The position numbers and the translations under genes were made by a program. The notes under the pieces are model-generated. The model saw only the letters and a program-made list of their open reading frames with translations. It ran no database searches and was not told the DNA's origin. From IMG/VR virus record IMGVR_UViG_3300045988_156243: 48,634 nt of DNA, one strand, 5' to 3'. The stretch comes from a virus. Its lineage: Duplodnaviria; Heunggongvirae; Uroviricota; Caudoviricetes. Positions 3,901 through 42,747 of this stretch are shown piece by piece (positions within the stretch are counted from its first letter, which is position 1; every line of letters begins with the position of its first letter).

Positions 3901-4569
3901 ATGGAGTCTCGACAAATGACTATCTCTGTAGGTATTTTCAACGGAAAAGGCGGCGTAACCAAATCAACAATTGCCCGTGCTTTAGCAGTTGCTTATGCAA
4001 AGGCCGGCTGGAATGTATGCCTGATCGATATGGATGTGCTTAACGGAACGGTAACGCGTTGGGTACAACGCAGAATGGCCAACAATATCGAACCTGCAAT
4101 CGCGGCACAGCCGTGCGGCACACCATCACAAGTCCAGAAAATCATCGAATCAGAAGTATACGACTTGGTTATCGTCGATGGCGGTGCCTACGCATCTGAA
4201 TCAGTACCGAAGCTCTCTGAATTTCTGGATATGGTTATTTTGCCAACCAGATTCTCTACCGATGACCTGGAAACCACCGTTAACACAGCTCATGGCATCG
4301 TTAAAAAGGGTGTGCCAATCAAGAAAATTTGCATGGTGTTCTCAGGCGCGGCTGAAAACGAAGCCGACTACATTGAAGCCCAAGAGTACCTGGCTAATAC
4401 GCCATACTTTGTTGTCGATAAGTACATTCCCCACAAGCCAGCTCTAAGCAAAGCTCAGGATAAGGGCTTAAGCCTCATTGAATGCTCATACGTTGCGCCA
4501 CGCAAAAAGGCAGACGACGTTATTCAGGGGATTATCAACCAGCTTGAGGCTCTGACTACTGCCGCGTAA
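3901..4569 (+). CDS. parA: ParA-family partition ATPase (small, ParF-like)
   Basis: 222 aa; deviant Walker A GKGGVTKST near the N-terminus; no N-terminal HTH extension. Confidence 0.85.
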   Translation: MESRQMTISVGIFNGKGGVTKSTIARALAVAYAKAGWNVCLIDMDVLNGTVTRWVQRRMANNIEPAIAAQPCGTPSQVQKIIESEVYDLVIVDGGAYASESVPKLSEFLDMVILPTRFSTDDLETTVNTAHGIVKKGVPIKKICMVFSGAAENEADYIEAQEYLANTPYFVVDKYIPHKPALSKAQDKGLSLIECSYVAPRKKADDVIQGIINQLEALTTAA

Positions 4570-11349: not shown

Positions 11350-11780
11350 TTATTTCGTCCTTATATAAATTGATTTTGTATAGTTCGAAACGCGCCGTTT
11401 CGAAAAGGATGATCAGGCTACTCCATGCCTCCGGCAAGTGCCGGAGGAGGTATATTTGAGCGTAGCGACTCGAACCGGCGCGAGCTTTAGCTCGCTGCAA
11501 GGGCGAACATATTCACAGGCAAAGCCTGCGTAAGTTAAATAAAGAAAGTTTTAATAAAAGAAAGTGATTTTGCATTTATTTGTTTAGTGCATCTATTATA
11601 AAAAACCATTTGCATATACATATCAAAACTGTGGATAACTTGATTAGTTGATACCTGTAAAGGCGATATTTTTGCTGAGTTCAGGTTTAGAGAAAATTAA
11701 TTTAGCTTGTTTTTTGAACAGCTATTTTTTTGCGACGTAGATAATCCTCCGGTAAAACCGGATTCATCATTCAGGTGAGT
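11350..11780. other. Candidate plasmid replication origin region downstream of repA
   Basis: AT-rich; DnaA box tgtggataa at 11630-11638; GC hairpins at 11385-11405, 11428-11448 and 11465-11485. Confidence 0.45.
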
Positions 11781-12628
11781 TAATGTTGGAGTGATTTCCA
11801 GGTCTTTCTTAGCCTGTTATAACGCTGCTCAACGAGGGATCGTAAATATGCAAGGTCAGCACCAGGATACATGCCATCAGCAAATTCCTGGCTAACCTCT
11901 CTAGTGATTTGATGACGAAGTTCGGCCTCTCCCTTTTCCTGAACAAGACGCGCAGCTCTCTCCGCTGCTTTCTGTTTTGCCTTTATCTCTCTGGCCGTCT
12001 TCCTCTGACGCCATACATTCTCCATCTGCTCCTGAATAACAATACGCTTATAATCAGCCTCCGTTATCGCTTTTTTAAGCCGTTCGCTATTCTTCGCATT
12101 GAAGTAATTAAGTTTCTGGCTAACCGCACGTCTCCATGCTTGTTCAGTAATACCAACGGTTTCCAGCAGTTGATCACGAATCTCTATTTTCGCTGGCCAA
12201 TACTGTTTATTCACCCGATCCCAGCGACGTTCATAATCAATAAAACCTAACGCTTTCAGTTGCGACAACGCCCTTGTACAGCGCGTTATAGACTTGTTCC
12301 CAGCTTCGGATACGGTAGACAGGCCGCAAAAATCAGCCAACGCCTCAGCACTAGCCAGAACCCGCTTAGAAATGATGTTTACATGGTGCAAAATCGCAGC
12401 GATCACAGCATTAATCGCCCGACGACGATGCTCGTTTATCCGGCGCTTCCGCTCTGACGGTTGATTAACGTAGAACGCAACCTCACACGTAAGATCACGC
12501 CCATTAATGCGCTGTAAAGCATCAGATAACACCAGCGGCAGCTTGTGCGTATGGTGCTTTGGAGGCTGGAACTCCGGCGACAAATTACAAACGTAAGCTG
12601 AACGTAGAGACGGCATTGGTCTATCCAT
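11780..12628 (-). CDS. repA: Plasmid replication initiator, IncFII RepA1-like
   Basis: 283 aa from ATG at 12628 (ORF-track start is TTG at 12790); SITRCTRALSQLKALGFIDYE resembles the RepA1 motif SITRATRAL as I recall it. Confidence 0.8.
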   Translation of the reverse strand: MDRPMPSLRSAYVCNLSPEFQPPKHHTHKLPLVLSDALQRINGRDLTCEVAFYVNQPSERKRRINEHRRRAINAVIAAILHHVNIISKRVLASAEALADFCGLSTVSEAGNKSITRCTRALSQLKALGFIDYERRWDRVNKQYWPAKIEIRDQLLETVGITEQAWRRAVSQKLNYFNAKNSERLKKAITEADYKRIVIQEQMENVWRQRKTAREIKAKQKAAERAARLVQEKGEAELRHQITREVSQEFADGMYPGADLAYLRSLVEQRYNRLRKTWKSLQH

Positions 12629-12673
12629 ATGTTCGCTCTTGCGTCCACGGAAAACCAACGTATAATGGGAGTT

Positions 12674-12752
12674 GTCGAGGCGCCCATGGATATTGTTGTT
12701 GGTTTTCCGTGGATGTCGCAAGAAGCCCGCAGATTTATCTGCGGGCTTTTTG
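12674..12752 (+). ncRNA. Candidate antisense RNA to the repA leader (CopA-like)
   Basis: Plus-strand promoter TTGCGT (12639-12644), 17 bp, TATAAT (12662-12667); terminator agcccgcag-atttat-ctgcgggct plus T5 at 12722-12753; 16-bp inverted repeat arms 12644-12659 and 12698-12713 around the repA RBS. Confidence 0.4.
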
Positions 12753-12794
12753 TTTCCATATCTGGTCACTTTCCAACCAGACACCCACAATCAT

Positions 12795-12940: not shown

Positions 12941-13495
12941 TCAATGATTCCCAGCCGGAAACCTGCGGTAAAGCGTGGATAAGGTAACATCGAAGATAAT
13001 CGCTATCCGCTTACGTGAAACACCATTCGCAATAAGCCTTCCGATCTGTTCCCATTGCTCTGGTGCCAGCTTTGAGCGACGTCCTCCTATCCTGCCGTTA
13101 GCCCTTGCCACCGCCAATCCTGCACGCGTTCTTTCAATCATATTTTCCCGCTCCATCTCTGCGACTGCACTCAGCATCGTGTAGGCAAAGCGGCCAATTG
13201 AAGTGCTAATTTTTATCCCTTCCGTAATCGAAATAAACTCAATGTTGTTTGATAAAAAATGGTTAAGTAAATCAACAAGATGAATCAGAGAACGCCCCAT
13301 TCGGTCCAGCTTCCAGACAATAACCGTATCGCCCGGCCGTAGCACCTTAAGTAGCTTATCAAGCCCTGGCCGTTTTGATTTAGCACCGGATATTTTATCT
13401 TCAAAAATCCGGTCACATCCTGAACTCCTGAGCGCCTCCAGTTGTAATTCCAAATTCTGGTCAAAAGTTGACACCCTCGCATAACCATATTGCAT
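12941..13495 (-). CDS. Serine DNA invertase (Gin/Hin/Cin/Pin family)
   Basis: 184 aa; N-terminus MQYGYARVSTFDQNLELQ with catalytic Ser; C-terminal HTH; adjacent to an invertible tail-fibre segment. Confidence 0.9.
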   Translation of the reverse strand: MQYGYARVSTFDQNLELQLEALRSSGCDRIFEDKISGAKSKRPGLDKLLKVLRPGDTVIVWKLDRMGRSLIHLVDLLNHFLSNNIEFISITEGIKISTSIGRFAYTMLSAVAEMERENMIERTRAGLAVARANGRIGGRRSKLAPEQWEQIGRLIANGVSRKRIAIIFDVTLSTLYRRFPAGNH

Positions 13496-33403: not shown

Positions 33404-35260
33404 CTATATGGTTACGCCTTTACTTATAACTCTACGGCGTCTTCTACGTATACCTGACGAGTTCTGCACATACACATTACCTCGCATTTCCTGTTCGGCA
33501 AGCCAGTTAAAATTAGGGTTCAGAATTTCCATCGCGGCAGTTGCATAGTTACGGCAATCAAGAGGCTCGTTACGCTCGTAGACTTTCACCCACTTTTCTT
33601 TTGTCTGCCCATTTTTATATTCAAATATTTTCTTCTCTGATAATAATCCTTTAAAGTATTCGGTATCATATCCTCTGTCAGAATCTAATGGGAAATGCAT
33701 ATAACCAGGACCAGGATCATGTAGTTTAATTCTTGCCATGATGGTCCCTTTACCATCATCAACCCCCAAATTAAACAACATAGCACCCACACGGTTATTA
33801 TTACTTGGCTTTCCTATAAATGGTAAACCTACCCCACCACGCCCCCTGATAGAGTATATTCGCCTTGATTCTCTCGGCTTAGTAAAGCGATATACCTCTG
33901 TCGTAAAATGCCCACCAGAGTCAATACAAACGGAAGAAATCTGTAATTTTCGACCGTCACGGAATGACCAGCTACGGAGTAAGTATTCATCAAGTTGTTT
34001 CCAGACAACATCTTGTGCGGGATCACCTGGGAATATTTTATATTCTATCCCCCATGACTCCTTACCTTTTCCCCAACCGACCAATTCACAAACTAAATAC
34101 GTGTCCTGTACGTCAACACCAGCACTTAACAATAAAACATCATCTGGTAAAAACTCTTCAAACCTTATTCTGCGTTGCAACAAGTATTCAGGATCGATAT
34201 CGTCTTTAGCATCCTCTTTCCATGGCTCACCCAGCTTAAGGTTAATAAACTCCATTAATCCATTTTTATCGCGGTTTCTGGTTGCTTCCGTAAATTCTTC
34301 AACCAGCTCTGACAATGCAACCCACGGGGAGTAAAGACTGTTAATATGAAAACCAACAATACCTTTAACTCCAGTATGTTCAGCTATCCATACCCCCTTC
34401 GCCAACCAATCAACGTCTGGTTTACCAGATCCGCGCATAATCCCGCCGCACTCACAGCACTCATATCTGGCCGTTTCCGGTAACGCCTCACCTGAATCGC
34501 TCTTATCCCATCTGACTTGCGACCATTTCATCACCTGCATGGTGCCACAACATGGGCAAGGAACATGGTAGTAACGCTGATCGGAGAGCTTAAACCACTT
34601 GTGGATTTTGCTCGTTTCCTCCAAAACAGGAGTAGAAACAAAAACTTTCTTACGATTATGAAAGTTGGTAGTACGCTGAATACCTAGTTTTAGTGGGTCG
34701 CCCTCCTGCGTCACACCGTAACGATCAATCTCATCAGCTAACAGTATTCGAATTGGCCTGGATGCAAGACCTGCTGGGGAATTAGCACCAACAAGTGCTA
34801 TATATCCACCAGCGTAATGCTTCATACGTATAGTCGTGCTGGACTTTTTGGCTGCACCGCGCCCCTCTTTCCCTTCATGCAGCTTGTGTTTCAAACCAGG
34901 GGAATATTTGAACGTCGGATCAATACGCTCTTTTGAAAAAGCCTCAGCCGCCTCTACCGTTGGATAAATCATCAACTGAGGAGATGGCTCCTGATCTGCA
35001 AAGTAACCCATAACATTTAGCTGTAATTCGGATTTACCAATTTGCGAGCTACATTGCATCACTACTGTTTCTGTATCAGCGTCACCAATAACATCCATTG
35101 GTTCACGCAAATATGGCACTCGGCTTGTACGCCACGGCCCTGGCTCTGGAGACGTTCCCGGCGCTACATGACGATACTTATCAGCCCATTCGGAAACAGT
35201 TAGCCGTGATTTAGGGCGAAGCGCACGGAAAAAAGCGGTGCTCCATACTGTTTCGCCCAT
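33404..35260 (-). CDS. Terminase large subunit (lambda gpA family)
   Basis: 618 aa; ATPase P-loop-like SQIGKSE; C-terminal CPCCGTMQVMKW zinc-ribbon-like segment as in gpA. Confidence 0.9.
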   Translation of the reverse strand: MGETVWSTAFFRALRPKSRLTVSEWADKYRHVAPGTSPEPGPWRTSRVPYLREPMDVIGDADTETVVMQCSSQIGKSELQLNVMGYFADQEPSPQLMIYPTVEAAEAFSKERIDPTFKYSPGLKHKLHEGKEGRGAAKKSSTTIRMKHYAGGYIALVGANSPAGLASRPIRILLADEIDRYGVTQEGDPLKLGIQRTTNFHNRKKVFVSTPVLEETSKIHKWFKLSDQRYYHVPCPCCGTMQVMKWSQVRWDKSDSGEALPETARYECCECGGIMRGSGKPDVDWLAKGVWIAEHTGVKGIVGFHINSLYSPWVALSELVEEFTEATRNRDKNGLMEFINLKLGEPWKEDAKDDIDPEYLLQRRIRFEEFLPDDVLLLSAGVDVQDTYLVCELVGWGKGKESWGIEYKIFPGDPAQDVVWKQLDEYLLRSWSFRDGRKLQISSVCIDSGGHFTTEVYRFTKPRESRRIYSIRGRGGVGLPFIGKPSNNNRVGAMLFNLGVDDGKGTIMARIKLHDPGPGYMHFPLDSDRGYDTEYFKGLLSEKKIFEYKNGQTKEKWVKVYERNEPLDCRNYATAAMEILNPNFNWLAEQEMRGNVYVQNSSGIRRRRRRVISKGVTI

Positions 35261-35265
35261 GAGGT

Positions 35266-35817
35266 TTATTCTTCCTGCTTAATAAATCGGGATTCCTGGA
35301 GCGCCTGAAGCGCAAAATTAATCTCGTCTTCAATAATGCGTTCGATCTCCCTGGCTGTTTTGCCTTCACAACGGGGAGCTGCTCTTGGAGCAATACTAAA
35401 TAAGCGGCTACGCAATTCATTAGCTGCCAGAAATGCATCATCCCTGACCGCATCTTTAGCGATGAGAGAGCCTTCCTTTTCTTCAAATTCAAGGCGTTTC
35501 AGCTTTGCCTGATAAATTTTTTCTGCGGTCTTAGCCTTGTTGAATTGCACCGCAACACCGGAAGTACCACCAGCTAATCCGGCATCATCAGCGGGTAACT
35601 CTGGTTGTTCCGAAGATATCCCATGCCCTCTTTTTCCATTTTCAGCAGATACCTCACGACCAACCTGTCGGCTCGCTTCATAAGCCGCACTGGCTTTATC
35701 AAAATCCAGCTTGCCGCTTTTCAGCACTGGAATGCGACCGGAACGACAGAGCTTCGTAACCATTGCCGGAGAAATACCTTTCCGGCGGGCAAACTCTGAC
35801 TTACTGACGATGGCCAT
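35266..35817 (-). CDS. Terminase small subunit (Nu1-like HTH)
   Basis: About 183 aa from ATG at 35817 (ORF-track start is TTG); N-terminal HTH SKSEFARRKGISPAMVTKL; directly upstream of the large subunit. Confidence 0.65.
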   Translation of the reverse strand: MAIVSKSEFARRKGISPAMVTKLCRSGRIPVLKSGKLDFDKASAAYEASRQVGREVSAENGKRGHGISSEQPELPADDAGLAGGTSGVAVQFNKAKTAEKIYQAKLKRLEFEEKEGSLIAKDAVRDDAFLAANELRSRLFSIAPRAAPRCEGKTAREIERIIEDEINFALQALQESRFIKQEE

Positions 35818-36407
35818 TACTTGCAACCATTAGCAAGATACTGAACAAATCCCTCATGCGTTTCATGCGCGTCGTGGTACTGACGATAAACATCCAGCAA
35901 CAATGCAATTTCCATATCCGTCGCGGGAATACGTTCTTTATCAATAGCCAGGTACTTAATTTGAACAACAGGGGAAGAATTATCGTCTTCTTCCTGCGGC
36001 TGTTCATCGCTTAACATTTCGTCAAGCTCTGCATCATTAAACCCAAGCAGATCAATATCAAAATCATCATCCATTAACTCTTTGACTTCTTCGGCCAGAA
36101 GCTGCATATCCCAGCCAGCATTTAAGGCCAGCTTGTTATCTGCAATCCTGTACGCCTTCTTCTGTTTTTCAGAAAGGTTACTCAACCGAATCGCCGGAAC
36201 TTTATCCATTTCCAGAATTTCGGCTGCTGCAAGCCGCCCATGCCCCGCAATCAGTTCATTCTTTTCATCGATCAGCACAGGATTAGTGAAACCGAACTCA
36301 CGGATACTGTTCACCAACTGTTCAACTTGCTCATCTGAATGAGTCCGTGAATTTTTGGCATATCTGAGCAGCTTACCGACTGGTAAATATTCGATTTTTA
36401 GAGCCAT
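35817..36407 (-). CDS. ParB N-terminal-domain (ParB-like nuclease) protein, paralogue 1
   Basis: 196 aa; FTNPVLIDEKNELIAGHGRLAAA core; stop overlaps the TerS start. Confidence 0.8.
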   Translation of the reverse strand: MALKIEYLPVGKLLRYAKNSRTHSDEQVEQLVNSIREFGFTNPVLIDEKNELIAGHGRLAAAEILEMDKVPAIRLSNLSEKQKKAYRIADNKLALNAGWDMQLLAEEVKELMDDDFDIDLLGFNDAELDEMLSDEQPQEEDDNSSPVVQIKYLAIDKERIPATDMEIALLLDVYRQYHDAHETHEGFVQYLANGCK

Positions 36408-36964
36408 TTTTTAACCGCCATAACACAACAGGTTAAAGAAAACTGTTTAACTTATTGATACTAAAAGAGAAAAATGACGATCTTTTTACTCATAAAAAAT
36501 CACACAAACCAGCATAATTATATGATTTTATTAAGTTTTTATAAGTAAAAAGGATCTTGCGATAGTGTTTTGGTTAAAAGATTGGATGTATTTGCATGAT
36601 TTATAACGATTTTTATCAGAACAACATCACATTGGTTAAAGATCTGCGCGTATCTTGATGATCTAAAAGAAAATTTTCTACTTTCTTTTTACCAGCACAA
36701 ATACAGCAAAAAATCACGTTTTCCCGATATTTTTCAATGAGATGAGTAAATTTCTTTTACCGCAACTTTTAACCTAACTTTTTTCACGTTTAGCTAGCCG
36801 AACATCGGGGTTCGAATGACCCGCATCCAACGCTTTTGGCCAGAAGGACCCAATTCTCCCGGACGATGAAACGATGCTCGTGCTCCCCCACAGACAGCCA
36901 GCGAGCGACGCTACAGAACACAGTGAATACACCCTGCATAACAACACCATCAACCACACGATGA
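36408..36964. promoter_or_regulatory. ORF-free AT-rich region with GATC cluster upstream of the packaging operon (candidate late promoter and/or cos/pac)
   Basis: Five GATC sites within about 200 bp and direct repeats ttggttaaaagat / ttggttaaagatc; only short overlapping ORFs. Confidence 0.35.
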
Positions 36965-37684
36965 TTAACGAGAGAACGTCTTAGAAAGGATGTCATCAAT
37001 AGCCTTTGTGACTTCATCAGCAAACGCATCCTCACCAGCACGCAGCGCCACGCCATGCCAATCAAGACGCTGCGAATAGTTAGGTTGCTGGATGAACGTA
37101 AGGATCAACGTAGGACGCCGCCCAACGCGCTGCCAGACGCCTGGTTGAAGCGGGTTACTTGTACCAGGTCGAACAACAAAAAACTCCGTAGGCTTGCCCT
37201 GACGGCGATTTTGATGCGCATCTCGCTGAACTCTTAGGCCAGATAAGACCTGCTGTAATTGCCCCCGCGAAATATTCCCGTATTTGTCCAGCTTTGCGCC
37301 GGGACCAGGAGCAAGCTGCCAGCCGTTAGGCAAATATCCACCAGCCCTTAGCGCCCCTTCTGAGCGTTTGTACTGTCGTTGGCCACCTTCGATTTGCGGA
37401 GTCAACGTTACAGGGGCTGGCGTTCCTCCCCATTCACGAGCATACACAATGGCTGTAGGATCACTCTTCTTTGCGGCCAAAACGTAAGTAGAGTTCTGAA
37501 TCCACGGCGTGGGCCTGTCAAATACCCGATTAATTTCATTCTTAATCGCAGCCTGAGAAGCCTTTGCCGTTCTGGTTGCCGCAAGCGCCATTGCGAACGG
37601 CAATTCGCGTTCTTCAAGGCGCTGGAGTTGTCGTTGAATATCCTGAGAAGAAAAATCCATCTTTATCTCAATTCTGTCAGCCAC
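36965..37684 (-). CDS. Hypothetical protein (GTG start with aggagg RBS)
   Basis: 239 aa; between the ParB-methyltransferase gene and the AT-rich region. Confidence 0.45.
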   Translation of the reverse strand: MADRIEIKMDFSSQDIQRQLQRLEERELPFAMALAATRTAKASQAAIKNEINRVFDRPTPWIQNSTYVLAAKKSDPTAIVYAREWGGTPAPVTLTPQIEGGQRQYKRSEGALRAGGYLPNGWQLAPGPGAKLDKYGNISRGQLQQVLSGLRVQRDAHQNRRQGKPTEFFVVRPGTSNPLQPGVWQRVGRRPTLILTFIQQPNYSQRLDWHGVALRAGEDAFADEVTKAIDDILSKTFSR

Positions 37685-37700
37685 CAGCGCCTCCTACACA

Positions 37701-39074
37701 CTACTTAATCAACGGCCGGAAAGCCGCCAGCACATCATCAGATCGTCCGATTGTTGAACCACCAGGCAACGGCAACTCAAACTCAAAACGAACAGCTTTC
37801 TCCAGACTCGCCCAACTAAGGGAATCATCGTTAATGACGTGCAAATACCAGCTCTTACAGTTGAATATTGACCGCTTAATCCTGAAACCATGTACACAAC
37901 ACAACTGCTTCACTTCATCATCAGAGTGAAACTTCTGGTAAAACCAGTGCCCCTTCCGGTACAACGCGGTAAAACCGTTATGATCAATAAAATAAAGCCG
38001 GCTTTTGGAACTCGCCGCTTGTGTTTGCTTCAGGACTGTTTCCAGCTCTCCACGGCTACGACCAGAAAAGAATATTGACCCACCAGCTTTACACAGGCCT
38101 TTCAGAACCGTCAGAACGGACCATTCAGCCTCAACACTATCGACCGAGTTCAAAACGCTATCGCAAATCACGTAGTCGTAACGCCCTCGCGTTTTTAAGT
38201 CGTCCACCAGCGTATCAATCATCCGGTTTGTTGCGGTCCTATCCAGAGTGTTTCCAGCGCCCTTACGGCGGAAAAGCTCGAGATCATGCAGGTTATATCC
38301 CTTTGCCCTGAGCATTCGCGCGTAGTCTCCCTGCCCCGAACCAAAATCAATTCCTCTTGGAGTCTTGGCAATGATCGGGAGGATCAACGACTCATACAGG
38401 TTTGATTTCAGGCTGCCACCATTACGCAACCGCATAAGCTGCGCATACGTCTGGATGTATGTTGTTTTCTCCAGATGAGAATACTCAAATACACCATAAG
38501 TTTTATTCAGATAACTTTGGTATTTTTCCTTCTCAACATCAGGGATCACAAACACCGTTAGCGGTGTGCGCGTCATCTTCGCTGCTAATGCATACTGAGC
38601 ACAGTGAATAACCTCGCCAGACTGAGTAGCAACACAACCACCCCACGGACCATACTTGATAACCAGTTCCGCTATGTTCTTTCGAACATATGCCATTTTC
38701 GCGCGCATATTGCCTGAGATCTGGCTTGCCGATACCTGAACAAAACCATGCTTATCTTCCAGACCGGACACCCTGCAACGCTCATCTCCGCTATCAAAAT
38801 CCGTTCCGTTATGCAGTTGGTTAAACCGTACTTCGTCGTATACCGTCGTTTCACAGGGCAACACATACACCGCAGCACGCGTTATTCCCAACTTACGTAG
38901 CGCCTTCGTCCTTTGATGTCCCGCCACCAGCAAATCGCCGCGCACTATCAATGGCTTCACAAGCCCCAGTTCCCTGACGCTTTCCGCCAGCCTAGCAAGA
39001 TCATCCTCACCGATAAAACGCGGGTTATATTCCGCGCCGCGTAGGTGCGTTATGTCGTAATTGAGGTGAAGCAT
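37701..39074 (-). CDS. ParB N-domain fused to class I SAM-dependent methyltransferase
   Basis: About 457 aa from ATG at 39074; N-terminal ParB-like LIVRGDLLVAGHQRTKAL; C-terminal methyltransferase motifs IDFGSGQGDY and YDYVICDSVLNSV; no DPPY-type motif seen. Confidence 0.75.
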   Translation of the reverse strand: MLHLNYDITHLRGAEYNPRFIGEDDLARLAESVRELGLVKPLIVRGDLLVAGHQRTKALRKLGITRAAVYVLPCETTVYDEVRFNQLHNGTDFDSGDERCRVSGLEDKHGFVQVSASQISGNMRAKMAYVRKNIAELVIKYGPWGGCVATQSGEVIHCAQYALAAKMTRTPLTVFVIPDVEKEKYQSYLNKTYGVFEYSHLEKTTYIQTYAQLMRLRNGGSLKSNLYESLILPIIAKTPRGIDFGSGQGDYARMLRAKGYNLHDLELFRRKGAGNTLDRTATNRMIDTLVDDLKTRGRYDYVICDSVLNSVDSVEAEWSVLTVLKGLCKAGGSIFFSGRSRGELETVLKQTQAASSKSRLYFIDHNGFTALYRKGHWFYQKFHSDDEVKQLCCVHGFRIKRSIFNCKSWYLHVINDDSLSWASLEKAVRFEFELPLPGGSTIGRSDDVLAAFRPLIK

Positions 39075-39697
39075 CAGCACACCTCCCCAGCCAGCAATGC
39101 GGATACAAATCCGATATAGCTGCCATTATCATCAACATAACGAGACACCGCGCAGTCAAAACGATCCGCTTCCTCATCCGTTGCCGGGATTTTATGACCT
39201 CCAAATGACAGGTACTGAACTTTTACGCCTGATTTGGCCTCATCCTTCTCAAATGGGATATCCATACCCTCTGTGTCATCGTAGACCGCCGCACTCAATA
39301 AGTTATCCAGTTCGCGCTGAGTAAAACCAATTGAGTCCAGAGCAAAATCATCGGCCGCAAGATCTGCAAGCTCCGCGCTTAACAACTCTTCATCCCAACC
39401 AGCATTCAGCGGAATACGGTTGTCGGCCAGACGATATGCCTTCTTCTGATTCTCCGTTAGCCCAGCCAGAACAATGCAGGGAACATCATCCATCCCCAAC
39501 TGAGTGGCCGCAGCAATTCGACCATGACCAGCAATTACAACGTTGTTCTCGTCTATCAGGATCGGATTAGTCCATCCGTACTCCTGTATGCTGGCAACAA
39601 TCTGATCTACCTGCTCCACGGAGTGTGTGCGAGCGTTCTTTTCATAACCAATCAACACAGAAAGTGGTAAAGAAACCACATTAAGATGTTTTGTCAT
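39074..39697 (-). CDS. ParB N-terminal-domain (ParB-like nuclease) protein, paralogue 2
   Basis: 207 aa; WTNPILIDENNVVIAGHGRIAAA; clearly paralogous to 35817-36407. Confidence 0.8.
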   Translation of the reverse strand: MTKHLNVVSLPLSVLIGYEKNARTHSVEQVDQIVASIQEYGWTNPILIDENNVVIAGHGRIAAATQLGMDDVPCIVLAGLTENQKKAYRLADNRIPLNAGWDEELLSAELADLAADDFALDSIGFTQRELDNLLSAAVYDDTEGMDIPFEKDEAKSGVKVQYLSFGGHKIPATDEEADRFDCAVSRYVDDNGSYIGFVSALLAGEVC

Positions 39698-39938
39698 GCC
39701 GTTTATCCGCTAAAATCCCCTCGCTTGTGCAAGCAAGTGGGCCTCGGTTTGTATCCACGGCACCCTGTGGGTATGAATGACTGTCGTCAGGTCGCAACTG
39801 ACGGCGGTCGCCCACCTTCCAGTAATAAAAAAGCCACCAGCATTAACTCTACAGCGAGCTGGAGTTAATGAGGCAGCTTTGGTTTGCGCATTATCGCAGC
39901 CCCTGGTAAGCACAAGAGCTGCTGTAATGCTAAAAAAA

Positions 39939-39962
39939 CAAAACCACCCGCAGGTGGTTTTA
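39939..39962. terminator. Bidirectional intrinsic terminator
   Basis: Perfect hairpin aaaaccacc-cgca-ggtggtttt flanked by A and T runs. Confidence 0.6.
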
Positions 39963-39989
39963 TAAATAAATAGCAAACAGGTATCTGCA

Positions 39990-40397
39990 CTAATCAGATA
40001 AACCAAACTTCTTCTTTGCCAATGACTTGAGAAGTTCTACACCAACATCCTTCATAACAGCCAATGGCTCATTGCTAATTTCTTTTAGTCTAGCGAAAAC
40101 ATCTTTGCTCTCTAGTGCACAGGCAAAATCCTGTCCCTCTGTAGTCAATCTAATATCTACATCAACAGTCCTCATTCCTGCAAAAAAATTAACATAGCCA
40201 AGACGCAGAGGATCACGCGTTTCCATCTTCATATTGCTGATAAAACCTTGCTCAATCAATTGCATATAATGAAACATGCCCTTTTCTGAGGCTATATCAA
40301 ACCCCGCATCTCTTAGTTGATTTACTGTTATGAACGTGCTTTCTGAATCCAAAAACACAGTCAGCATCTTTTTTAGATAATCTAGATCGGTGCGCAT
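39990..40397 (-). CDS. Hypothetical protein
   Basis: 135 aa from ATG at 40397 with aaggagg RBS (ORF-track start is TTG at 40433). Confidence 0.45.
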   Translation of the reverse strand: MRTDLDYLKKMLTVFLDSESTFITVNQLRDAGFDIASEKGMFHYMQLIEQGFISNMKMETRDPLRLGYVNFFAGMRTVDVDIRLTTEGQDFACALESKDVFARLKEISNEPLAVMKDVGVELLKSLAKKKFGLSD

Positions 40398-40483
40398 TTT
40401 ACCCTCCTTAAATGGAACGCAAATGTTACACAACCTTTAAAAAAGACACATTGTTTTATTTATGCCTCATTTTAATCGACCAA

Positions 40484-40636
40484 TTACTGCCTAAATTTAT
40501 CAATCAATAATTGCTCCCGCTTACGCCGAAAAGCTCTCTGCGCCACTAAGATGCGCCACAGAACACCAGCGATAACCACCAGCGAGATACAAAAACACAC
40601 GGCCACAACCATCAGAAAAATGCCAACACCATTCAT
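40484..40636 (-). CDS. Small hydrophobic protein (50 aa), not in the supplied ORF track
   Basis: Hand translation MNGVGIFLMVVAVCFCISLVVIAGVLWRILVAQRAFRRKREQLLIDKFRQ; ATG overlaps the stop of the upstream gene (ATGA). Confidence 0.3.
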   Translation of the reverse strand: MNGVGIFLMVVAVCFCISLVVIAGVLWRILVAQRAFRRKREQLLIDKFRQ

Positions 40637-41775: not shown

Positions 41776-42363
41776 CTATGCCACTTGCCAGAGAGCATCA
41801 TGCAACTGGATACCTCCATTGCACTGGTTGCCCCAGCCATGCCAACCATCAGGTAAATCACCGCGAGCAAACAGCTCAATACGAGGAACATCACCTAACA
41901 GCCTTACCAGCTTGTCACGAACCACATCAGGCTTCCGAGAATGCTCCAGACGAGGCGATGTAAACGACTGAATGATCCCCGCATCAAGGCGGGTCGGCAA
42001 TTTGCCTTTTACCGCAAACAAGCAATCTTCACTGTTTGCACGAGTCATATGCCCCATCCCCATCACCAGCTTATCTGGTTGTCGGCTACCACATTTGTTC
42101 CATGTGAAGCCCTTCATGGTCATAAGCCTGAATCCCCATGCTTTCACCACCAGCAACGCTTCTTCTGGCTGAGTCGGAACCCACCACATGGCCAACAAAC
42201 ACGATTCAGGATTAGCAAGCTGCCAGACAGGAATACGAGCAATATCCTCAGCTTTCATCGTTGGATACTTAAAACCAGCTCCACGATTCCCATCCTTACA
42301 CTTATCTTTGTATTCCCAGGGGGGATCTGCATAAATCAGATTAAACAATGCAATTGCCTCCAT
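41776..42363 (-). CDS. MT-A70-family N6-adenine DNA methyltransferase
   Basis: 195 aa; catalytic DPPW motif in IYADPPWEY near the N-terminus. Confidence 0.8.
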   Translation of the reverse strand: MEAIALFNLIYADPPWEYKDKCKDGNRGAGFKYPTMKAEDIARIPVWQLANPESCLLAMWWVPTQPEEALLVVKAWGFRLMTMKGFTWNKCGSRQPDKLVMGMGHMTRANSEDCLFAVKGKLPTRLDAGIIQSFTSPRLEHSRKPDVVRDKLVRLLGDVPRIELFARGDLPDGWHGWGNQCNGGIQLHDALWQVA

Positions 42364-42671: not shown

Positions 42672-42747
42672 TGGTGGCCCCTACCGGATTTGAACCGATG
42701 ACCGTGCGATTATGAGTCGCCTGCTCTAACCACTAAGCTAAGGGGCC
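42672..42747 (-). tRNA. tRNA with CAU anticodon (Ile2-like or Met)
   Basis: 76 nt; 7-bp acceptor stem GGCCCCT/AGGGGCC, anticodon loop CUCAUAA, T-loop GGTTCAAATCC, encoded CCA; close to E. coli tRNA-Ile2 as I recall it. Confidence 0.85.

What the first reader, a model, noticed from the sequence alone, without database searches (positions are those of the whole stretch)
35817..39697. Two paralogous ParB-domain proteins flanking a ParB-domain/SAM-methyltransferase fusion, directly upstream of the terminase genes
The genes at 35817-36407 and 39074-39697 are clear paralogues with a ParB N-terminal (ParB/Srx) domain. Between them is a fusion of the same domain to a class I SAM-dependent methyltransferase (motifs IDFGSGQGDY and YDYVICDSVLNSV; no DPPY/NPPY amino-methyltransferase motif seen) and an unassigned 239-aa protein. 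All are translationally coupled into the packaging operon. The substrate of the methyltransferase is not obvious; the cluster may be a DNA modification, anti-restriction or packaging-associated system.
Basis: partly seen in the sequence, partly recalled or inferred. Interest (0 to 1): 0.6.

Follow-up and report, generated by a model that had tools for sequence, protein, structure and literature searches.

The report
Phage ParB-partnered methyltransferase module beside cos
A phage-plasmid carries, on either side of its DNA-packaging start site, a widespread but uncharacterised gene pair (a small acidic ParB-like protein plus a ParB-fused SAM methyltransferase) that most likely modifies phage DNA just before packaging, though its chemistry has not been tested.

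Summary
The genes are real and the two short proteins are true paralogues (48% identity), each with a ParB N-terminal domain. Between them lies a 457-aa protein made of a ParB domain, an unassigned middle domain and a class I SAM methyltransferase. Three points need correction. A 557-nt non-coding gap splits the cluster, so it is not one translationally coupled unit. That gap holds the probable 12-nt cos site, which puts ParB207, the fusion and p239 at the right end of virion DNA and ParB196, TerS and TerL at the left end. The 239-aa protein looks like an HK97 gp10-type tail-completion protein and is not part of the enzyme system. The conserved core is the short ParB plus the fusion. It recurs in about 120 loci from many phyla, nearly always just upstream of terminases of at least four families, and in two protein clusters the two genes are fused. 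The short ParB belongs to the clade that is fused or adjacent to phage DNA-modifying enzymes (N6/N4 methyltransferases, a TET-associated glycosyltransferase). The methyltransferase domain resembles small-molecule and tRNA methyltransferases and lacks DNA-methyltransferase motifs. The best reading is a late-expressed, ParB-assisted DNA-modification module with unknown chemistry. The architecture was catalogued in 2025 and its function is untested.

The parts
39074..39697 (-). ParB207: short, acidic (pI 4.3) stand-alone ParB-fold protein and the conserved partner of the fusion. It has an N-terminal ParB domain (GHGR box II), a helical acidic linker and a small conserved C-terminal domain.
   Evidence: The gene directly upstream of the fusion is a short ParB in at least 79 of 105 loci.
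37701..39074 (-). ParB-middle-methyltransferase fusion (457 aa from ATG 39074; GTG 39080 is an alternative start). The ParB domain spans about 38790-39074, the unassigned alpha/beta middle domain about 38466-38789, and the class I SAM methyltransferase about 37704-38465.
   Evidence: phrog_5475, E 9e-265; AF2 pLDDT 93
36965..37684 (-). p239: basic (pI 10.1) protein with an HK97 gp10-like tail-completion fold (phrog_1924). It is the last gene before cos and is not conserved with the ParB/methyltransferase module outside close relatives.
36810..36821 (.). Putative 12-nt cohesive end (cosN), GGTCATTCGAAC on the - strand. Inferred, not shown.
   Evidence: Independent Yersinia phage records break at 36822|36821 and at 36810|36809, exactly 12 nt apart. 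The terminase is lambda GpA-type.
36409..36774 (.). AT-rich leader between cos and ParB196, holding 5 of the 8 GGTTAAAR sites found in the whole window. Possibly cosB-like protein-binding sites.
35817..36407 (-). ParB196: paralogue of ParB207 (48% identity, pI 4.5). It is the first gene after cos, and its stop codon overlaps the TerS start codon.
35266..35817 (-). Small terminase subunit (183 aa from the annotated ATG)
   Evidence: phrog_57, E 7e-42
33404..35260 (-). Large terminase subunit, lambda GpA type
   Evidence: (phrog_15, E 1e-258)
39938..39963 (-). Terminator-like hairpin (11-bp stem followed by a T run) about 240 nt upstream of ParB207. It marks the upstream edge of the ParB207-fusion-p239 unit.

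Best explanation
This is a late-expressed phage DNA-modification module. Its conserved core has two proteins: a short acidic ParB-fold protein (ParB207, with ParB196 as a lineage-specific duplicate) and a basic fusion of a ParB domain, a middle domain and a class I SAM methyltransferase.

Proposed mechanism, all inferred. The ParB-fold domains bind a nucleotide triphosphate. By analogy with ParB N-domain engagement, they bring the short ParB and the fusion together on double-stranded DNA. The short ParB acts as activator or loader, and the methyltransferase domain transfers a methyl group from SAM onto replicated phage DNA shortly before the terminase packages it. The packaged genome would then enter the next host already modified, which could give protection against restriction or other DNA-sensing defences. 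The active site lacks the amino-methyltransferase and C5-methyltransferase motifs, so the product would not be ordinary m6A, m4C or m5C.

Shown here: the domain architecture, intact SAM-binding and ParB box motifs, the conserved gene pairing, the Rosetta-stone fusion, and the position next to terminases.

Not shown: DNA as the substrate, the chemistry, the NTP dependence, and any protective effect.
For: (1) The pairing is conserved. A short ParB lies directly upstream, with overlapping stop and start codons, in at least 79 of 105 loci from Proteobacteria, Bacillota, Chloroflexi, Planctomycetes, Bacteroidota and Chlorobi.

(2) In two 50%-identity clusters (P0364, P0369) the short ParB is fused in frame to the fusion protein.

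(3) The short ParBs belong to the clade that forms the N-terminal 150 residues of phage Type II DNA methyltransferases: phrog_498 at E about 1e-50, PADLOC MTase_II at E 2e-40, and 57% identity to the ParB module of the Psychrobacter phage pOW20-A N6_N4 methyltransferase. A homologue at 61% identity in phage vB_EcoS-683R6 is followed by a TET-associated glycosyltransferase at the same position upstream of TerS.

(4) Published precedent exists. A phage ParB-like partner activates a thymine dioxygenase on dsDNA (PMC13229309). ParBc proteins co-occur with the DNA carboxymethyltransferase CmoX (PMC12783734).

(5) The methyltransferase looks active. DFGxGxG, the acidic beta2 residue and other residues are invariant across 41 diverse members. 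The fusion is basic (pI 9.1) while the partner is acidic.

(6) The ParB domain keeps box I and the box II arginine (GHQR against GERR of Spo0J). Fusions with the same architecture were reported to bind ATP (PMC12704722).

(7) The module is placed after the lysis genes and immediately before packaging genes. The first large downstream ORF is a large terminase in at least 57 of 74 cases, across GpA, Terminase_6, Terminase_3 and Terminase_1 families.

Against: The domain has no DPPY-type or PCQ/ENV motif. It matches no R-M, BREX or DISARM methyltransferase model in PADLOC.

The short ParBs are strongly acidic and have no recognisable DNA-binding domain.

The phage already encodes an MT-A70 DNA methyltransferase.

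Proximity to terminase genes may reflect module boundaries rather than function. A distant homologue in Brochothrix phage BtpYZU02 sits in the replication module without a short ParB.

No methylome or biochemical data were available.
Confidence: 0.5

Rival explanations
1. The methyltransferase acts on a non-DNA substrate: a nucleotide or signalling molecule, RNA/tRNA, or a protein such as a virion or terminase component. The ParB-fold domains would serve as NTP sensors or substrate binders. The module would then be an anti-defence or host-takeover enzyme, or a protein-modifying enzyme, rather than a DNA modifier.
For: Fold and sequence neighbours are small-molecule, tRNA and protein methyltransferases. 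DNA-methyltransferase motifs are absent and the catalytic domain has no PADLOC match. ParB-fold proteins bind ATP, CTP or GTP and include kinases and sulfiredoxin (PMC12704722). The highly conserved middle domain has no known fold relative by sequence.
Against: The partner ParB clade is specifically linked to DNA-modifying enzymes. The fusion's ParB domain is closest to the DNA-clamping Spo0J/Noc type. The position before packaging genes is conserved.
Confidence: 0.25
2. This is a packaging accessory system. The ParB-fold proteins would act as nickases or as DNA-marking clamps at or near cos/pac that help the terminase recognise or cut concatemers, analogous to the HNH endonucleases of HK97-like phages. 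The methyltransferase would play a regulatory role.
For: The module lies immediately upstream of terminases of at least four families. ParB196 is translationally coupled to TerS, and the two paralogues lie on either side of the putative cos. A ParB-methyltransferase of a B. cereus prophage encoded next to TerS nicks DNA non-specifically (PMC3592412; PMC5512222).
Against: The association holds for both cos-type and headful-type terminases, which have different cutting requirements. Most phages with these terminase families lack the module; only 7 of 50,697 phage records carry the fusion. This reading gives no reason for the strict conservation of an intact SAM site. The second paralogue next to TerS is confined to close relatives.
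Confidence: 0.15
3. The ParB-like proteins are the partition (centromere-binding) proteins of the phage-plasmid.
For: The element is a plasmid prophage with IncFII RepA and is found on about 48-kb plasmids in 74 E. coli genomes. GenBank records label the genes 'chromosome (plasmid) partitioning protein ParB'.
Against: TIGR00180 scores are 40, 30 and 16 bits against a cut-off of 58, and there is no HTH or dimerisation domain. The element's ParA (3901-4569) is about 30 kb away. The genes lie in the late region. Homologous modules occur in integrated prophages and lytic-type contigs next to terminases.
Confidence: 0.03

Closest known systems
Phage and prophage ParB-N6_N4 DNA methyltransferase fusions (phrog_498; e.g. 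B. cereus prophage Bce_0392, Psychrobacter phage pOW20-A gp39)
   Same: They share the same clade of ParB module: the short ParBs match its first roughly 150 residues, up to 57% identity. They share the same position just upstream of terminase genes and are SAM-dependent.
   Different: Here that ParB module is a separate protein. The catalytic protein carries its own, more divergent ParB domain, an extra middle domain, and a Methyltransf_23-type class I domain without the DPPY motif.
ParB-CTPase-Methyltransf_23 fusions catalogued by Hocher/Le and colleagues (PNAS 2025, PMC12704722); phrog_5475
   Same: The architecture is the same, with the same enrichment in phages and prophages. The window protein matches phrog_5475 over its full length.
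   Different: That survey reports the architecture and ATP binding by 'SAM-methyltransferase fusions'. It does not report function, the partner ParB or the link to terminases. Whether the proteins they tested belong to this exact family could not be checked.
ParB-dependent phage thymine dioxygenase (5mYOX176 with ParB176; PMC13229309)
   Same: A stand-alone phage ParB-like protein without a DNA-binding domain is encoded next to a post-replicative DNA-modifying enzyme and is needed for its action on dsDNA.
   Different: The enzyme there is an Fe/2OG dioxygenase and carries no ParB domain of its own. Activation is shown for that pair and is only inferred here.
Canonical ParB/Spo0J/Noc CTP-dependent DNA clamps
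   Same: The N-terminal fold, box I and the box II arginine are shared. The best PDB sequence matches are these proteins.
   Different: These proteins have no HTH, no C-terminal dimerisation domain, no adjacent ParA and no parS. Box II reads GHGR or GHQR instead of GERR.
HNH endonucleases next to cos and terminase genes (HK97 gp74 type)
   Same: Both are accessory genes placed next to cos and directly upstream of TerS (PMC3592412).
   Different: No HNH domain is present. The module also accompanies headful-type terminases.

Membership tests
ParB/Srx (ParB-CTPase fold) N-terminal domain, PF02195 | Significant match to the ParB_N profile, including box I and the box II Gxx R arginine | tested here: met
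   ParB196 scores 33.7 bits (cut-off 26.3); ParB207 scores 23.9 and the fusion 24.3 bits, just under the cut-off, with E about 4e-5; phrog_620 at E about 1e-74; the family profile matches Spo0J 6sdk at E 2e-8, with GHQR aligned to GERR.
Canonical partition ParB (TIGR00180 ParB/RepB/Spo0J) | Score above the family cut-off, with an HTH DNA-binding domain and a C-terminal dimerisation domain | tested here: not met
   40.1, 29.8 and 16.4 bits against a cut-off of 58.45. Matches cover only the N-terminal roughly 90 residues.
Canonical partition ParB (TIGR00180 ParB/RepB/Spo0J) | Encoded next to a ParA ATPase with a parS centromere | tested here: not met
   the only ParA-like gene is at 3901-4569, about 30 kb away. 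The neighbours here are late and packaging genes.
Class I (Rossmann-fold) SAM-dependent methyltransferases | Motif I (D/E)xGxGxG, an acidic residue at the end of beta2, and the seven-stranded fold | tested here: met
DNA amino-methyltransferases (N6_N4_Mtase, MT-A70, R-M/BREX/DISARM methyltransferases) | Catalytic motif IV (D/N/S)PP(Y/F/W) and a match of the catalytic domain to these families | tested here: not met
   no such motif; no Pfam hit; the PADLOC MTase_II model matches only the ParB part (residues 10-73).
DNA cytosine-C5 methyltransferases | PCQ motif with a catalytic cysteine, and an ENV motif | tested here: not met
   both motifs are absent; the only nearby cysteine (C306) is not invariant.
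Phage ParB-CTPase-Methyltransf_23 fusion family (phrog_5475) | Full-length match with the same domain order | tested here: met
   E 9e-265 over residues 3-459 of the protein and 1-457 of the 458-position profile; 716 relatives of about 460 aa; 309 clusters at 50% identity with E <= 1e-30, nearly all full length.
Phage ParB-CTPase-Methyltransf_23 fusion family (phrog_5475) | Nucleotide (ATP) binding in the ParB pocket, as reported for this architecture | not testable with these tools
   Reported in PMC12704722. Here only the conserved box II arginine R57 can be seen.
ParB-partnered phage DNA-modification systems (ParB-N6_N4 methyltransferase, ParB with 5mYOX, ParB with TAGT) | A ParB-fold protein of the methyltransferase-associated clade encoded with, or fused to, the modifying enzyme | tested here: met
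ParB-partnered phage DNA-modification systems (ParB-N6_N4 methyltransferase, ParB with 5mYOX, ParB with TAGT) | Demonstrated covalent modification of DNA | not testable with these tools
   No methylome or biochemical data are accessible.
HK97 gp10-like tail-completion / neck proteins (for the 239-aa protein) | The gp10-type fold | tested here: met
Lambda-like cos packaging | A GpA-type large terminase and defined 12-nt cohesive ends | tested here: inconclusive
   The GpA terminase is confirmed. The 12-nt end is inferred only from the 12-nt offset between break points of deposited phage records.
HNH terminase-accessory endonucleases | An HNH/beta-beta-alpha-Me domain | tested here: not met
   none of the four proteins has an HNH match.

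The most novel reading that the evidence does not exclude
The short ParB and the ParB-methyltransferase fusion form a nucleotide-gated heteromeric ParB clamp. This clamp loads a non-canonical methyltransferase onto phage DNA and installs a DNA methylation that is not m6A, m4C or m5C, for example on another base position or on the backbone. The result would be a previously unrecognised, widespread phage DNA modification made just before packaging.
Probability: 0.2. Interest if true: 0.8.

Novelty: new variant of a known kind. Interest (0 to 1): 0.5.

Why it matters
ParB-fold proteins are emerging as partners of phage DNA-modifying enzymes. This module would add a third enzyme class to that theme: a small-molecule-type class I methyltransferase. 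It has an obligate short ParB partner and is spread across at least six bacterial phyla. It also occurs on phage-plasmids carried by E. coli reference strains such as ATCC 25922, so it can be studied genetically. If the product is a new DNA mark, that bears on phage evasion of restriction and other defences, on interpreting methylome data, and on how the ParB NTP switch is reused outside chromosome segregation. If the substrate is not DNA, it would be a new kind of late-expressed phage effector.

Tried and rejected
I tested whether the middle domain (residues 98-205) is a degenerate second ParB domain. HHalign against the N-terminal domain gave probability 0.4%, so the idea was rejected.

I looked for RNA elements in 35500-40500 with Rfam and found nothing meaningful.

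I looked for sigma-70 promoters in the 557-nt gap. There were no more hits than chance and none on the coding strand within the gap.

I screened for known defence-system membership with PADLOC. Only the ParB part matched, to a Type II methyltransferase model.

I checked for a partition role and rejected it.

I asked whether p239 belongs to the module. It is absent from the module outside close relatives. Its homologues are the last gene before the right end in Pseudomonas F10-like phages that have no ParB-methyltransferase pair in the 4.7 kb read around that gene. It was therefore rejected as a component.

I searched the window for the 145-aa Cys/His protein that follows the fusion in half of the other loci. 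It is absent.

I searched the literature for a packaging role of ParB-like nucleases next to the small terminase and found no papers.

PDB sequence searches with p239 gave nothing.
Full report
**What the window is**

The region is 99% identical to about 48-kb plasmids in 74 complete E. coli genomes, including ATCC 25922. It is also 99% identical to Yersinia phages vB_YpM_39/41/44 and Escherichia phage vB_EcoM-613R2. The window encodes an IncFII RepA, a ParA-type ATPase and a resolvase alongside a full set of virion genes. It is therefore a phage-plasmid. Its head module is lambda-like, with TerS, a GpA-type TerL and a portal.

**The observation**

Four ORFs lie on the minus strand:
- ParB207 at 39074-39697.
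- The fusion at 37701-39080.
- p239 at 36965-37684.
- ParB196 at 35817-36407.

TerS (35266-35817) and TerL (33404-35260) follow.

ParB207 and ParB196 are 48% identical over their whole length (E 5e-62). Both match ParB_N and phrog_620.

The fusion matches ParB_N and Methyltransf_23. It matches phrog_5475, a family of unknown function, from end to end (E 9e-265). Homologues begin MLxLxYD, so the likely start is the ATG at 39074. That start shares one base with the ParB207 stop codon (TGATG). ParB196 and TerS overlap in the same way.

There is no DPPY-type, PCQ or ENV motif.

First, 557 nt of AT-rich non-coding DNA separate p239 from ParB196. The cluster is therefore not one translationally coupled unit.

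Second, that gap probably holds cos. The records of vB_YpM_39 and vB_YpM_44 break at window positions 36822|36821 and 36810|36809. These points are exactly 12 nt apart, and the 12-mer GGTCATTCGAAC sits at the start of one record and the end of the other. With a lambda GpA-type terminase, this is what a 12-nt cohesive end would produce. It remains an inference from deposited assemblies.

Between this site and ParB196 lie five of the eight GGTTAAAR sites in the window. These are candidate protein-binding sites of the cosB kind.

In virion DNA, ParB207, the fusion and p239 would be the last genes at the right end. ParB196 would be the first gene at the left end.

A terminator-like hairpin lies upstream of ParB207 at 39938-39963.

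**The fusion protein**

At least 716 relatives of about 460 aa were found in the 90%-identity database. The 50%-identity library holds 309 clusters with E <= 1e-30, and nearly all are full length.

Forty-one diverse members are 45-89% identical to the window protein. The following are invariant across them:
- The ParB box II arginine, within AGHQR.
- A FNQLHNGTD motif.
- Many residues of a middle domain (residues 98-205).
- The SAM motif DFGxGxG.
- The acidic residue E268.

The AlphaFold model is confident (pLDDT 93, pTM 0.89).

The family profile aligns the N-terminal domain to B. subtilis Spo0J, with YNPR, box I and GHQR aligned to GERR.

The methyltransferase domain resembles generic small-molecule and tRNA class I methyltransferases such as 3sm3, Trm9, UbiG and GNMT. 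It does not resemble DNA methyltransferases. Its catalytic part matches no PADLOC methyltransferase model.

The middle domain has no Pfam match and no detectable similarity to the ParB domain.

The fusion is basic (pI 9.1). The two short ParBs are acidic (pI 4.3 and 4.5), with very acidic C-terminal halves.

**Comparative context**

I retrieved 43 genome loci and 77 viral loci. They come from Proteobacteria, Bacillota, Chloroflexi, Planctomycetes, Bacteroidota, Chlorobi and others.

The gene directly upstream of the fusion is a short ParB in at least 79 of 105 loci with a full-length fusion. In 12 more it is two genes upstream. These partners form a coherent family: median length 208 aa, 97% acidic, with a conserved GHxR, a DN motif and a small C-terminal domain. 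Their stop codons usually overlap the fusion's start codon.

Two protein clusters, P0364 and P0369 (about 658 aa), have the short ParB fused in frame to the fusion. This is a Rosetta-stone argument that the two proteins work together.

Among 74 distinct first large downstream ORFs, at least 57 are large terminases: GpA 26, Terminase_6 22, Terminase_3 6 and Terminase_1 type 3. The position just before the packaging genes therefore holds across cos-type and headful-type terminases.

The second paralogue next to TerS, together with p239, is confined to relatives whose fusion is at least 69% identical. Tandem short ParBs or tandem fusions occur in Planctomycetes and Chloroflexi.

In about half of the loci a 145-aa Cys/His-rich protein with no known family follows the fusion. 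It is absent from the window.

**What the short ParB clade is associated with**

The first roughly 150 residues of ParB196 and ParB207 match the N-terminal module of phage DNA methyltransferases:
- phrog_498 at E about 1e-50.
- The PADLOC Type II methyltransferase model at E 2e-40.
- 402 phage records, mostly annotated as DNA methylases.

In Psychrobacter phage pOW20-A this module (57% identity) is fused to an N6_N4 methyltransferase just upstream of TerL.

In Escherichia phage vB_EcoS-683R6 a homologue at 61% identity is followed by a TET-associated glycosyltransferase just upstream of TerS.

Published work shows a phage ParB-like protein activating a thymine dioxygenase on dsDNA (PMC13229309). 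It also shows ParBc proteins co-occurring with the DNA carboxymethyltransferase CmoX (PMC12783734).

A 2025 survey lists ParB-CTPase-Methyltransf_23 as a phage-enriched fusion of unknown role, 'perhaps in anti-defense'. It reports ATP binding by SAM-methyltransferase fusions (PMC12704722). I could not check whether the proteins they tested belong to this family.

**Interpretation**

The best-supported reading is a late-expressed, ParB-assisted DNA-modification module. Its core is the short ParB plus the ParB-middle-methyltransferase fusion, acting on replicated DNA before packaging (confidence about 0.5).

The main weakness is that the catalytic domain looks like a small-molecule or tRNA methyltransferase and lacks DNA-methyltransferase motifs. 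A non-DNA substrate is therefore a serious rival (0.25).

A direct packaging role is possible but less supported (0.15). The module accompanies terminases with different cutting mechanisms, and most phages with those terminases lack it.

A partition role is rejected.

**Novelty and score**

The architecture is already catalogued as phrog_5475 and in the 2025 survey. ParB-partnered DNA-modifying enzymes are a known theme.

New here:
- The obligate short-ParB partner and the Rosetta-stone fusion.
- The cross-phylum link to four terminase families.
- The split of the cluster by cos.
- The assignment of p239.

I rate it a new variant of a known kind, with interest 0.5.

Noticed in passing
L006:11382-11819 (+), L009:11364-11804 (-), L067:1821-2252 (+) and about 50 further loci; absent from the window: A protein of about 145 aa, rich in Cys and His, sits directly after the ParB-methyltransferase fusion in 47 of about 105 loci, on either strand. 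Its motifs are F[RK]YFWxK, HCA[RK]CL, YxCGV, NFHLA and TCRN[FW]QF. It has no Pfam, PHROG or PADLOC match. It may be a third component of the module in other lineages.
   Followed up: partly
P0364 (658 aa) and P0369 (659 aa), from the 50%-identity representative library: These are natural in-frame fusions of a short ParB (including its small C-terminal domain) to the ParB-middle-methyltransferase protein.
   Followed up: yes
window 36810-36821 and 36409-36774: Deposited Yersinia phage genomes break at two points exactly 12 nt apart, which suggests a 12-nt cohesive end, GGTCATTCGAAC. Five of the eight GGTTAAAR sites in the window cluster in the 370 nt between this site and ParB196.
   Followed up: partly
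L129 (Escherichia phage vB_EcoS-683R6) 3489-5205: A homologue of the short ParB at 61% identity is followed, with overlap, by a TET-associated glycosyltransferase (PF20691). The pair lies after the lysis genes and just upstream of TerS. It looks like a parallel ParB-plus-DNA-modifying-enzyme pair.
   Followed up: partly
L017, L019, L022, L023, L024 (Chloroflexi); L014, L103 (Planctomycetes): The Chloroflexi loci carry two or three tandem copies of the fusion gene plus a second short ParB a few kb downstream. The Planctomycetes loci carry two tandem short ParBs and two copies of the 145-aa protein.
   Followed up: no
window 39938-39963 (- strand): A strong terminator-like hairpin (11-bp stem followed by a T run) lies between the DUF2513 gene and ParB207.
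   Followed up: no
window 41776-42363 (-), 42672-42747 (-): The same late region holds a 195-aa MT-A70-family DNA methyltransferase (Pfam E 3e-23) and a tRNA-Met gene. The phage therefore already has a conventional adenine-methyltransferase candidate.
   Followed up: no
window 11780-12790 (-), 12941-13495 (-), 3901-4569 (+): An IncFII-type RepA, a serine resolvase and a small ParA-type ATPase form the plasmid-maintenance part of the phage-plasmid. They are separate from the ParB-like genes near the terminase.
   Followed up: partly
L126 (Pseudomonas phage F10) 3875-4618, and other F10-like phages: Homologues of the 239-aa protein are consistently the last gene before the right genome end, after the lysis cassette and far from the tail genes. 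This is an odd place for a tail-completion-like protein.
   Followed up: partly
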